A DNA stretch of 64,000 bases from Perna viridis (Eukaryota): assembly GCA_037379345.1 (NCBI GenBank), contig CM074515.1, positions 33,855,801 to 33,919,800 of the forward strand, written 5' to 3'. Each line of letters starts with the position of its first letter. Position 1 is the first letter of the stretch. This document shows positions 12,001 through 15,000 of this stretch, in pieces. The position numbers were made by a program.

Positions 12001-15000
12001 TATATGTAGTTGATCATATTGCTCCACAATTTGGACAAATTTTACAGGAGTTATTGAGCTTTTGCACTTCAAAATGTCATGTAAATTCTGTGAAAAAGGC
12101 TACATACTTTTATTTTTGTTATTAAGTTTCTTTTATAGGTCTGTATGATGAAATGTATAATTATTCATTTCAATCTGTCTGTTTAGGAGATAATCCACAA
12201 GGAAAATCCAGTAGTTTCTATTGTATTTTTGTGTATTTTATTAATTCTACAGTTCAGTCTGTATAACTTTTATCTCCTATGAAGAAGGGTTGTATGAAAA
12301 GCCATGTAACTTTCTGTTTTCTGTGACATTTAAAACAAAGTATCAAAAATGAAAATATGTAGGCTTTCTAACCATGAATTACATTTTGAATGATTGTTAC
12401 CTAGAGTGCCACTTATGTGAAATTGATTCTTGATAAGAACTTTTGGTTTTTATTGTTTATTTGTTTTAATGATATGGAAAAATCTAACTATGAAAAGTAC
12501 TACCTAAAAAAGGAAACTGTGATGACATGCAAAAATAAAAGTACTTGCAATATAAGCTCTATAAAAAAACCACGAGGTTCTCAGGTGCTCTGGGAAAAAT
12601 GTGGTAGCGTTTTTTTTAATATGTGGGTTTTGTATAATCACCAAAGTTATTGGAAATATTAAATTTCATTTGGGAATTAAAATTTATACTTGTCTAAACT
12701 ATCAAAAACCACGAAAATTGGACCTCTGTGAAAAATTATACTTTCTTGTTTTTTTTCAGACCTTGATGTAACAACAGCAACTGTTCATGTCCAACCACCA
12801 ACAATAAACATCTCAAAAAGTACAGTTTCTGGAACAAGTGGCAAATCTGTGACCTTGACCTGTTCTGTGACCTCCAGTGAGACGGTCAAGGATGTTTATT
12901 GGAAGAAAGATGGAAAAGCAAAAATAAACTCTAGTTCTAATTCTAAGAAGTATAGTGGTTGCTCTGCAAGTACACCATCACTGACAATTTTAAATGTTGA
13001 AAAGAATGATGCAGGATCTTACATTTGCTTTGCCAAGAACAGCGGAGGACAAGGAGAAAGCAGCGCCATCAAGCTTGATGTTTCTGAACCTCCTAGTGAG
13101 TATGACTGAAGGTTAAAAGGGGATTAAGGGCTCTTAATGACCCTAAATACAACTGAAAATAATCATGTTTTGAAAGTGGTTTCTGAATTTGAAGACTTTA
13201 CAACTTTGAAAACATAAGAATTTAATAATATTCTTGTTTAAAAATGACAAAAAATATGTATTTTAATATGTTTCATGTATTTGTGGGCCACTACAGTACA
13301 AATTGTCCATACAACTTTGATATTGAGTAATATAAGATGTTGTGATTGAAGTTTTCAGCTTTTATAGCTTGTCAAAATCTTTCTCCACCATGCAGAAACA
13401 TTTGCTTTCAATAACTTTACTTTTTCTGCTGAAAAAAAAAATAAATAGAAACAATACTTTTGAAATATTCAGAACTATGACTAGAATTGTTTAGATATTT
13501 TAACATATTAGGGTTTTCAGGTATTACATTGATAAACATGGACTTTGGCTCAGTGGGACAGGGATGGAGACATGTGATGATTTTTATCTAAAGAAACTTG
13601 TTTCTTATTGGATAATATTTTATCCACCAGGCGTACAGTCAAACTTGTCTTAAGGAGGTAGTCCTAGGGTAAGGGACAATTGAATGTTTGTATTCAGCAT
13701 TTTACATCAATCTCATGTAAGCATCAAAGTAACTTGTATTGATTTCATTCTGTTTCAAATGAAAGCTTGATAGGCTTTGGTGAAATTGAATATGATACAA
13801 ACATATCACTGATTTCAAGAGTTATCTTCCTTACTCTAAGTCTACCTCCTTAAGTGACCTTCTCAGGGAAGCAATATAATGGTCACAAAAGACGTGTTCT
13901 GTATATAAATGTTAATTTTACATGTGCATATTTAGGAATATTATAATCATGGCTTAATTAGACAGGTTATTGCTGAACACCGGTGAATGCTGAGATTTTT
14001 TTGACTGTATGTAACATACATACATCATAGATTACTGTTCTCATGCAAATAATGACTGAAAGTAAGGGTTTGAAAATTGCTGTAGAGATTAAAAAAACAA
14101 GCAATACCTTATGGCATGTTATTTGGTGGATGTAAAATTTGGAAATTTTGAAACAGAAAGGGATTTGAAAAATTTGGTGTTTTTAGTTTTGGTGGCTTAT
14201 TATATAAATGGTGAATTAAGTACTTTTACCCAGAGTAATAATTTTATGGAATTTATTTTTATGTTTTCAGACATCACTAAAAATACACCAAATTAAGCAC
14301 CTTGCACAAAATTACCAGCTTTACGGTATTTCATGATAAATTCCAACTGTGTTTCAGAACCAAAGCCAAGTGCAGCTCCCTTAGAGTCTTTACCGGATGT
14401 GAAGGTCGACACTTTGGCATGTGCTGGAAAAAGTCGTCCAAGACCACCCCGGAACAGACGTCCAGGTCGACCTAATCCAGCTGCTCTTCTTGATCAGGAC
14501 GAAGAGTCCAAGGAAGAGGAGAAGAAAATTGATGAATTCTTTACATCTATTGCTGTCAAAGTGGAGACACCAGTTAAAACAACTCCGTCAAAACTGGAAA
14601 GCAAGGCTGATAAGGAGAAGCCTGAGAAGGATAAAGATAAGAAGCCAATGTAAGTTGGTGGGATGATAATTGTGTAATTTTTGTATTTATAATCAGAGCT
14701 AGTTTGACATGATACATCTGAATTTATGAGTGTGATAGAAATTTAACAATTACATCACATTATATAGTTAATTTCATCAAATAGAGTTGGTCTTCCCTTG
14801 ATTGAATGACCATTAACCTGATGAAATGTCTTAGGTTGTTAACTGGATCATTTTAATCAAGAGATTTAAACTTACTATCATTTGTCTAAGTTTGATAGAA
14901 AGTTTAAATCACATTGTCAATTTACATAAAGAAGTTTATCAGGTGATTGTCATTTAGTCGAGGGAAGACCAATTTGATTCCCTGAAGTTAACCATTTTAC

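What the first reader, a model, noticed from the sequence alone, without database searches (positions are those of the whole stretch)
12760..13095. CARMIL with an inserted immunoglobulin domain just before the capping-protein-binding motif
SEEN: an intact 336-nt phase 1-1 exon with strong splice sites encodes a complete Ig fold (C...W...DAGSYIC). It lies in frame between two CARMIL exons, directly upstream of the CPI exon. KNOWN: CARMILs (PH-LRR-helical dimerisation-CPI/CSI-proline-rich) are cytosolic and I know of none described with an Ig domain; phase 1-1 Ig exons are classic exon-shuffling modules. INFERENCE: lineage-specific capture of an Ig module, skippable without frameshift, giving a new actin-regulator architecture or a tissue-specific (e.g. 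muscle) isoform.
Basis: partly seen in the sequence, partly recalled or inferred. Interest (0 to 1): 0.72.

Follow-up and report, generated by a model that had tools for sequence, protein, structure and literature searches.

The report
Lone immunoglobulin exon inside CARMIL gene
A complete, well-preserved immunoglobulin-domain exon sits in frame, with good splice signals, in the intron just before the capping-protein-binding exon of an invertebrate CARMIL gene; if it is really spliced in, this actin regulator gains an unusual extra domain.

Summary
Window 12760-13095 (+) is a 336-nt, phase 1-1 exon with a T-rich tract and AG acceptor and an A|GTGAGT donor. It encodes a full I-set Ig domain (Pfam Ig_3 E 1e-17; AlphaFold2 pLDDT 89; best solved match NCAM Ig). 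It lies between exons that match one Pfam model, CARMIL_C: positions 50-82 at 1917-2004 and 186-285 at 14358-14649, the CPI/CSI exon. Both flanking introns are phase 1, so inclusion and skipping each keep the frame.

It is the only Ig exon in the 64 kb, and I found no convincing nested gene. Its nearest family is a large set of extracellular Ig-repeat proteins, at most 48% identical per repeat. One other genomic contig carries an 83%-identical, gap-free copy whose flanks show no similarity. That argues for purifying selection, but that copy's locus is unknown.

No transcript, orthologous locus or annotated CARMIL could be reached, so inclusion in CARMIL mRNA remains inferred (about 0.55). Three paper searches found no CARMIL described with an Ig domain. 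Verdict: a real exon and a plausible exon-shuffled CARMIL variant, with expression unproven and the muscle-isoform idea unsupported.

The parts
1917..2004 (+). CARMIL exon in the helical/C-terminal region
   Evidence: The ORF 1903-2112 matches Pfam CARMIL_C positions 50-82 (E 1e-8, 35.6 bits, cut-off 25). Exon borders come from the splice scan (donor TTG|GTAATT).
2715..2882 (+). Probable CARMIL exon, phase 0-0, with no family match on its own
   Evidence: Acceptor ...tattttag|ACAAAC and donor CCCATG|gtaagt. Open frame. No Pfam family at E<=1.
10004..10180 (+). Exon immediately upstream of the Ig exon; starts and ends in phase 1; Ser/Pro/Thr-rich linker
   Evidence: Acceptor ...catatcttag|ACACAG and donor AAAG|gtattc. 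It is the only open frame across this stretch. GC is 43.5% against about 30% in the introns. No Pfam match, so assigning it to CARMIL is inferred from position, strand and phase.
10181..12759 (+). Phase-1 intron upstream of the Ig exon
   Evidence: It holds interspersed repeats at 10628-10948 and 12101-12423 that have copies elsewhere in the window. No convincing signal-peptide first exon was found.
12760..13095 (+). Solitary I-set immunoglobulin exon, 336 nt, phase 1-1
   Evidence: Ig_3 E 1e-17. AlphaFold2 pLDDT 89.2. Foldseek best match NCAM Ig1-2-3, TM 0.76. It is the only Ig hit in six frames of the window with a family HMM (E 4.5e-38; next best 4.4).
13096..14357 (+). Phase-1 intron downstream of the Ig exon
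   Evidence: No plausible terminal exon for a nested gene was found.
13649..13854 (.). MITE-like element of about 205 bp with 26-nt terminal inverted repeats, inside the downstream intron; not part of the exon
   Evidence: Inverted repeat I1, 88% complementary. Ten full-length copies (about 200 bp) at 76-86% identity lie elsewhere in the window.
14358..14649 (+). CARMIL exon with the capping-protein-binding region (CPI motif and a CSI-like stretch); starts in phase 1, ends in phase 2
   Evidence: Pfam CARMIL_C positions 186-285 (E 1.8e-7). The stretch LACAGKSRPRPPRNRRP can be set against the CPI consensus LxHxTxxRPK(x)6P quoted in PMC5491179 (passages read). Borders.
16072..16185 (+). Next CARMIL exon (basic/hydrophobic stretch), continuing from phase 2
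   Evidence: Splice scan. Its frame is consistent with the phase-2 end of the exon at 14649.

Best explanation
The + strand of window 1 to about 30700 carries the 3' half of a single-copy-type invertebrate CARMIL gene. One exon from the lineage's large family of extracellular Ig-repeat genes was copied, with its own splice sites, into the phase-1 intron between the last linker exon and the CPI/CSI exon. This is classic phase 1-1 exon shuffling. The exon is sense-oriented, symmetric and phase-matched, and it has a strong acceptor and donor. The spliceosome is therefore expected to recognise it, most likely as a cassette exon whose inclusion or skipping both keep the frame. Inclusion would place a folded beta-sandwich of about 12 kDa in the otherwise disordered region, roughly 20 residues N-terminal of the CPI motif. 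There it could act as a docking or spacing module next to the capping-protein-binding site. Shown: the exon, its fold class, its position, phases and splice signals, its uniqueness in the window, its family of origin, and an intact 83%-identical second copy with unrelated flanks. Inferred: splicing into CARMIL mRNA, purifying selection at this locus, and any effect on capping-protein binding.
For: Anatomy:
- The exon is complete, with canonical splice sites, and is phase 1-1.
- Both neighbouring exon ends are phase 1.
- It lies between exons matching positions 50-82 and 186-285 of the same Pfam model, CARMIL_C. It is therefore inside the CARMIL gene, not between genes.

Fold:
- It is a full Ig domain, with pLDDT 89.2 and pTM 0.79.
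- The best PDB matches are NCAM, Dscam and other I-set domains.

Solitary:
- tblastn finds only this exon.
- A family HMM built from 477 repeat segments, run over all six frames, also finds only this exon.
- No convincing first or last exon of a nested gene was found.
- The 1.2 kb around the exon is not repeated elsewhere in the window.

Constraint:
- P0104 is 91 of 110 identical, 102 of 110 positive, with 0 gaps.
- Its 49 upstream and about 18 downstream residues (read-through intron) find nothing at the corresponding place in the window.
- Simulated copies of the upstream flank were still found in 60 of 60 trials up to 20% divergence, 53 of 60 at 25% and 44 of 60 at 30%.
- Under a crude neutral model the exon stayed free of stops and indels in 42 of 5000 trials at 8% divergence, 1 of 5000 at 15% and 0 of 5000 at 20%.
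- An independent contig (P0072) reproduces the exon at 100% identity.
Against: - There is no transcript evidence of any kind.
- No CARMIL protein with an Ig domain was found. The Ig exon searched against longer proteins gave 3 hits among 702 candidates, none of them CARMIL. None of the 153 stored Ig relatives has a CARMIL-like segment. These searches could hardly have found one, however, because the CPI exon itself found no CARMIL at all (0 of 330 candidates).
- The locus of P0104 is unknown. It could be an exon of the donor Ig gene, in which case its conservation says less about the window's copy.
- Only intact ORFs enter the protein collections, so broken copies would go unseen.
- The nearest relatives are extracellular (PAN + 3 Ig + Fibrinogen_C, and multi-Ig proteins). 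The domain keeps the disulfide cysteines and two N-x-S/T sequons, features with no use in the cytosol.
- Exon 10004-10180 has no family match.
- My gene model is incomplete upstream. There is a phase 0 to phase 1 gap between 2882 and 10004, with no convincing exon found to fill it.
Confidence: 0.55

Rival explanations
1. Stray exon. A fairly young duplicated piece of an Ig-repeat gene landed in the CARMIL intron and is not part of mature CARMIL mRNA, or is included only as splicing noise. Its open frame and splice sites are leftovers that have not yet decayed.
For: There is no expression evidence. The nearest relatives are extracellular Ig-repeat proteins. The intron is full of mobile-element copies, so this is a region that receives insertions. 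Phase and strand compatibility would arise by chance in roughly one case in six (my estimate from general intron-phase frequencies, recalled). If indels are ignored, survival of an ORF at about 8% neutral divergence is not very unlikely.
Against: The only close copy known is already 17% different in protein, yet both copies are gap-free, stop-free and keep all eight family-invariant positions. In the crude neutral model only 42 of 5000 copies remained intact at 8% divergence. The flanks of the two copies are not detectably related although the exon is. Both splice sites are intact.
Confidence: 0.25
2. Exon of a separate gene nested in, or overlapping, the CARMIL intron on the same strand, for example a small secreted Ig protein whose other exons I did not recognise.
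For: The domain type, cysteines and sequons fit a secreted protein. Short first exons that encode signal peptides are hard to find by eye.
Against: No other Ig exon or relic exists anywhere in the 64 kb. Candidate first exons in 10181-12759 are AT-rich junk with weak donors (4 of 6 matches). Candidate terminal exons in 13096-14357 encode at most 29 residues. The exon's phases match the host gene on both sides.
Confidence: 0.12
3. Assembly artefact. The Ig exon was joined to the CARMIL locus by a mis-assembly across the repeats that flank it.
For: Interspersed repeats lie on both sides (12101-12423 and 13649-13854). The independent contig behind P0072 is only 1314 bp, so it cannot reach either CARMIL exon.
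Against: The window has no N and no composition break at the exon's flanks. The matching strand and phase would be a coincidence.
Confidence: 0.05

Closest known systems
CARMIL family (capping protein, Arp2/3 and myosin-I linker), canonical architecture PH-LRR-HD-CPI/CSI-MBD-proline-rich
   Same: The host gene matches Pfam CARMIL_C in two exons. It has a CPI-like motif followed by an acidic ...IDEFF... stretch resembling the CSI, then basic/hydrophobic and proline-rich exons. The review PMC5491179 (passages read) gives one CARMIL gene per invertebrate genome and places the CPI/CSI in a disordered region after the dimerisation domain.
   Different: The review's architecture has no Ig domain; the word 'immunoglobulin' occurs 0 times in its text. 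Here an Ig exon sits in the intron directly before the CPI exon. The CPI motif also departs from the consensus at two specified positions (C for H, G for T).
Extracellular Ig-repeat proteins of invertebrates (multi-Ig 'hemicentin/CEACAM-like' and PAN-Ig-fibrinogen proteins)
   Same: These are the nearest sequence relatives. There were 7071 representatives at E<=0.001. The best single repeats are 45-48% identical and share the ...KYSG..TPSLTI...D.G.Y.C.A.N motif. The one named relative is a Mytilus galloprovincialis CEACAM5-like protein.
   Different: Those proteins carry 3 to 62 tandem Ig repeats with other extracellular modules (Fibrinogen_C, PAN). P0015 has what looks by eye like a signal peptide. 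Here a single repeat stands alone inside a cytosolic protein's gene.
Cytoskeletal I-set Ig domains (titin, obscurin, palladin/myotilin class)
   Same: These are the same fold class in cytosolic, actin-associated proteins. Titin and obscurin-like Ig domains are among the structural matches (ranks 18, 20 and 40). This is what the domain would work like if it is included in CARMIL.
   Different: It is not a member by descent: its closest sequence and structure matches are cell-surface adhesion domains (NCAM, Dscam). That palladin/myotilin Ig domains bind actin is recalled, not tested here.
Phase 1-1 module exon shuffling (the classic route by which Ig, EGF and FN3 domains spread)
   Same: One domain equals one symmetric phase 1-1 exon, inserted into a phase-1 intron.
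   Different: The classic cases are extracellular proteins receiving extracellular modules (recalled). Here the recipient is a cytosolic regulator.

Membership tests
Immunoglobulin superfamily, I-set type domain | Significant match to the curated Ig domain models over their full length | tested here: met
   Ig_3 E 1e-17 (64.8 bits, cut-off 30, profile 1-78 of 78). I-set 8.9e-15 (profile 2-86 of 90)..
Immunoglobulin superfamily, I-set type domain | Core residues: Cys in strand B, the invariant Trp, D-x-G-x-Y-x-C in strand F | tested here: met
   C34, W47, and D83 to C89. Across 840 aligned repeats of relatives, these positions are C in 785, W in 821 and C in 821.
Immunoglobulin superfamily, I-set type domain | Beta-sandwich fold | tested here: met
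   AlphaFold2 pLDDT 89.2, ten strands. Foldseek best match is 1qz1, NCAM Ig1-2-3 (E 4.1e-8, TM 0.76, rmsd 1.8 over 101 columns). This is a prediction, not a solved structure.
CARMIL (host gene) | CARMIL_C region (Pfam PF16000) | tested here: met
   Two separate exons score above the gathering score: 35.6 bits and 31.6 bits, against a cut-off of 25.
CARMIL (host gene) | CPI motif LxHxTxxRPK(x)6P | tested here: inconclusive
   The window has L-A-C-A-G-K-S-R-P-R-(6 residues)-P. L, R, P and the final P match; K is replaced by R; H is replaced by C and T by G. Consensus taken from PMC5491179. Binding to capping protein was not tested.
CARMIL (host gene) | CSI motif RxDEGxEEFFxKR | tested here: inconclusive
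   Only an acidic run followed by ...IDEFF... is present. The review says some invertebrate CARMILs lack the CSI.
CARMIL (host gene) | N-terminal PH and LRR domains | not testable with these tools
   They would lie upstream of the window's start. No resource holding this genome was available.
Cassette (alternative) exon of CARMIL | Symmetric phase that matches both neighbouring introns, plus functional splice signals | tested here: met
   Phase 1-1 with phase-1 neighbours. The acceptor has 85% pyrimidines in the 20 nt before the AG. Donor is A|GTGAGT.
Cassette (alternative) exon of CARMIL | Spliced transcripts that join it to CARMIL exons | not testable with these tools
   No transcript or eukaryotic genome collection was open. 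The protein searches found only unspliced genomic ORF calls (P0072 and P0104).
Cassette (alternative) exon of CARMIL | Conservation of the exon at the orthologous intron in related species | tested here: inconclusive
   One 83%-identical intact copy exists with diverged flanks. Its genomic context and organism are unknown.

The most novel reading that the evidence does not exclude
An invertebrate lineage has domesticated an extracellular-type Ig module into its only CARMIL gene. The module has been kept under purifying selection in more than one species and is spliced in right next to the CPI motif. Regulation of actin capping protein in these animals would then involve an Ig-mediated interaction, or steric tuning, that no described CARMIL has. 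It would also be a clean, datable example of exon shuffling from the secreted proteome into a cytosolic actin regulator.
Probability: 0.4. Interest if true: 0.6.

Novelty: new variant of a known kind. Interest (0 to 1): 0.45.

Why it matters
CARMILs are central regulators of actin capping protein, and their architecture is treated as fixed from amoebae to vertebrates. A folded Ig domain some 20 residues from the CPI motif would be a new architecture for the family. It would offer a natural experiment on how neighbouring structure affects CPI-capping protein binding. It would also be an unusually clear case of a phase 1-1 module moving from extracellular proteins into a cytosolic one. If the exon is not expressed, it is only a well-preserved stray exon and of little interest.

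Tried and rejected
- CPI exon against longer proteins: 330 candidates, none at E<=0.01. No CARMIL of this lineage could be fetched for an architecture survey.
- CPI exon against PDB sequences: one irrelevant hit at E 0.79.
- ESM Atlas with the CPI exon: no usable hit. With the Ig exon: generic I-set clusters only, with no useful taxa.
The organisms behind P0005 to P0154 therefore stay unknown.
- Whole-frame translations of 1-10000 for a Pfam scan: rejected because of stop codons. I replaced this with single ORFs.
- Search for the exon needed to bridge phase 0 at 2882 to phase 1 at 10004: ten candidates, none convincing. The best is 7788-7890, which has no Pfam match.
- Nested-gene first and last exons: none convincing.
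- Rfam: no RNA family in the window.
- A third cysteine (C67) as a marker shared only with P0104: rejected, because 32 of 840 aligned repeats also have Cys there.
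Full report
**Observation**

- The sequence reads ...cttgttttttttcag|AC... at its start and ...CCTCCTA|gtgagt at its end.
- The only open frame is the stop-to-stop ORF 12732..13109 of 125 aa. It begins with two bases that complete a codon and ends with one spare base, so the exon is 336 nt and phase 1-1.
- The 111-residue translation (P0001) matches Pfam Ig_3 at E 1e-17 over the whole model. It also matches ig, I-set and V-set at 2e-15 to 5e-11.
- A strict scan for acceptor/ORF/donor combinations in 1-32000 listed it among 21 candidates. 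Its pyrimidine fraction was 0.85 and its donor matched 5 of 6.
- Exon GC is 40.2% against 29.6% and 30.3% in the two flanking introns, which is in the range of the neighbouring exons (34-46%).

**Host gene**

- The ORF around 1917-2004 matches Pfam CARMIL_C positions 50-82 (E 1e-8, 35.6 bits).
- The exon 14358-14649 matches positions 186-285 of the same model (E 1.8e-7, 31.6 bits). Both scores are above the curated cut-off of 25. The Ig exon therefore lies inside a CARMIL gene, within the span of one family model.
- The 14358 exon carries LACAGKSRPRPPRNRRP. Against the CPI consensus LxHxTxxRPK(x)6P (review PMC5491179, passages read) it keeps L, R-P and the final P, has R for K, and differs at H and T.
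- An acidic run ending in ...IDEFF... follows and resembles the CSI motif.
- Downstream exons are basic/hydrophobic and then proline-rich, as expected for a CARMIL tail.
- The exon just upstream of the Ig exon (10004-10180) has good splice sites and ends in phase 1. The CPI exon starts in phase 1. Inclusion and skipping of the Ig exon therefore both keep the frame.
- Two weaknesses remain. Exon 10004-10180 has no family match of its own. And the exon 2715-2882 is phase 0-0 while 10004 needs phase 1, so at least one exon between them is missing from my model. The best candidate, 7788-7890, is unconvincing.

**Is it alone?**

- tblastn with P0001 and with a Mytilus multi-Ig protein finds only this exon.
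- An HMM built from the query plus 477 aligned repeats of relatives was run over all six frames. It scores this exon at E 4.5e-38 and nothing else better than E 4.4.
- Candidate first exons (ATG to a phase-1 donor) in the upstream intron are AT-rich with weak donors. Candidate terminal exons in the downstream intron encode at most 29 residues. A nested gene is therefore not supported, though a short unrecognised exon cannot be excluded.
- The introns hold interspersed repeats, including a MITE-like element of about 205 bp at 13649-13854 with 26-nt inverted ends and ten full-length copies elsewhere in the window.
- The roughly 1.2 kb around the exon is unique in the window.

**Relatives of the Ig module**

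- An exhaustive HMMER search of 1.84 billion representatives gave 7071 proteins at E<=0.001. Most of the best 150 are giant multi-Ig proteins.
- Taken repeat by repeat, the closest are 45-48% identical (841 HSPs examined).
- Of the six such relatives I scanned, one (P0138) is PAN + 3 Ig + Fibrinogen_C. The others are Ig repeats only. P0015 begins with what looks by eye like a signal peptide.
- The only named near relative is a CEACAM5-like protein of Mytilus galloprovincialis at 33% identity. That is the sole basis for calling the organism a mollusc.
- None of the 153 stored relatives contains anything like the window's CARMIL exons. The two chance hits had E 0.17 and 0.65.
- The predicted structure is confident (pLDDT 89.2, pTM 0.79). 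It is most like NCAM and Dscam Ig domains (TM 0.76 and 0.66), with titin and obscurin-like domains further down the list.

**Two close copies**

P0072 (169 aa, 100% identical) and P0104 (184 aa, 83% identical) both come from short contigs of 1314 and 1131 bp.
- P0072 is an unspliced, prokaryote-style ORF call on the same locus. Its first 52 residues are the window's intron read in another frame, joined to the exon frame by one extra T in the poly-T tract. It runs on into the donor. It confirms the local sequence independently, but it says nothing about splicing and cannot reach a CARMIL exon.
- P0104 is the informative one. It has 91 of 110 identities, 102 of 110 positives and no gap, and it keeps all eight family-invariant positions.
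- Similarity between P0104 and the window stops within about four residues of each exon border.
- The best flank-only matches were at chance level. One was E 0.73 for residues 28-46 at 11865-11921, which lies in the same intron but about 840 nt from where it should be. The other was E 1.7.
- In a control, mutated copies of the window's upstream flank were still found at the right place in 60 of 60 trials at 5-20% divergence, 53 of 60 at 25%, 44 of 60 at 30%, 12 of 60 at 40% and 0 of 60 at 50%. The flanks are therefore either much more diverged than the exon or unrelated.
- In a crude neutral model the exon stayed free of stops and indels in 263 of 5000 trials at 5% divergence, 42 at 8%, 11 at 10%, 1 at 15% and 0 at 20% and 30%. 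The model used AT-biased substitutions, indels at one eighth of the substitution rate, and counted any indel as a break.
- The residues at P0104's borders (P-D at the start, E-S-K at the end) are compatible with a retained AG acceptor and an A|GTAA donor in the same phase. Without its DNA this is inference only.
- Together this points to purifying selection on the exon.
- Caveats: P0104's organism and locus are unknown, so it may be the donor-gene exon rather than the orthologue. Protein collections only show intact ORFs. And the model is rough.

**How it most likely works**

- I commit to an exon-shuffled cassette exon of CARMIL (confidence 0.55).
- A sense-oriented exon with strong signals inside an expressed gene's intron is normally seen by the spliceosome. 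A phase-compatible one can be tolerated, and an intact one with a conserved counterpart is probably used.
- The domain would sit in the disordered linker about 20 residues before the CPI motif. By analogy with cytosolic I-set domains (recalled: titin, palladin class), it would serve as a docking or spacing module.
- The rivals are a stray unused exon (0.25), a nested gene (0.12) and a mis-assembly (0.05).

**Comparison and novelty**

- The 2017 CARMIL review gives the architecture PH-LRR-HD-CPI/CSI-MBD-PRD and one gene per invertebrate. The word 'immunoglobulin' occurs 0 times in its text (passages only, not the whole text).
- Three full-text searches combined CARMIL or LRRC16A with immunoglobulin domain, Ig-like domain, I-set, Ig domain, exon shuffling, mollusc or bivalve.
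- None of the 39 rows listed across those searches (15 + 12 + 12, one paper appearing twice; listings only) combined CARMIL with an Ig term. These lists show only the top-ranked of 176, 135 and 1,435 papers. Annotated protein records were not surveyable.
- I therefore rate it a new variant of a known kind if it is expressed.

**What stayed unchecked**

- The joined (spliced) model was deliberately not built, searched or folded. Every exon was handled on its own.
- No transcript data or eukaryotic genome collection was available.
- Genome contigs holds only bacteria and archaea and was not used.
- Supplementary files of papers were not consulted.
- As a result, expression, the orthologous loci, dN/dS, the organism's identity and the frequency of Ig-bearing CARMIL annotations all remain open.

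Noticed in passing
window 8241-9874 (+): A tandem array of a 66-nt unit, 24.8 copies at 92% match, lies in the intron upstream of exon 10004. It creates spurious long ORFs of 438 and 192 aa, and it accounts for the strong negative GC skew of the 8-10 kb bin.
   Followed up: partly
window 13649-13854, with copies at 388-612, 2298-2503, 15641-15859, 25989-26210, 26414-26634, 29541-29759, 33783-33992, 45274-45479 and 52461-52682: A MITE-like element of about 205 bp with 26-nt terminal inverted repeats (88% complementary). Ten full-length copies at 76-86% identity lie elsewhere in the window, on both strands.
   Followed up: partly
window 2883-10003 (+): There is a phase mismatch in the CARMIL model. 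Exon 2715-2882 ends in phase 0, but exon 10004-10180 starts in phase 1, so at least one exon of length 3n+1 is missing. The best candidate is 7788-7890 (103 nt, CAG|GTATGA), which has no family match.
   Followed up: partly
window 14413-14463 (+): The CPI motif departs from the consensus LxHxTxxRPK(x)6P at two specified positions (Cys for His, Gly for Thr) and has Arg for Lys. Whether this CARMIL binds capping protein in the usual way is open.
   Followed up: no
window 12744-12756: An independent short contig of the same locus (behind P0072) reads one more T in the poly-T tract of the Ig exon's acceptor (T9 against T8). This is either a length polymorphism or a homopolymer error, and it lies in the polypyrimidine tract.
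   Followed up: partly
window 16072-16185 and 18505-18705 (+): Two successive CARMIL exons each carry a similar basic/hydrophobic stretch (...SRLFGKK... and ...FFKLPFGKKSK...). They may be a duplicated membrane-binding motif.
   Followed up: no
window 42349-45146 (-): There seems to be a second gene on the minus strand. One ORF has a weak Thioredoxin_6 match (E 0.022, 15.1 bits, below the cut-off). Another has an acidic stretch followed by a hydrophobic segment. This would fit a membrane thioredoxin-type protein, but that is not established.
   Followed up: partly
window 2992-3370 (+): A tandem repeat of a 64-nt unit (5.9 copies, 93% match) lies just downstream of exon 2715-2882.
   Followed up: no
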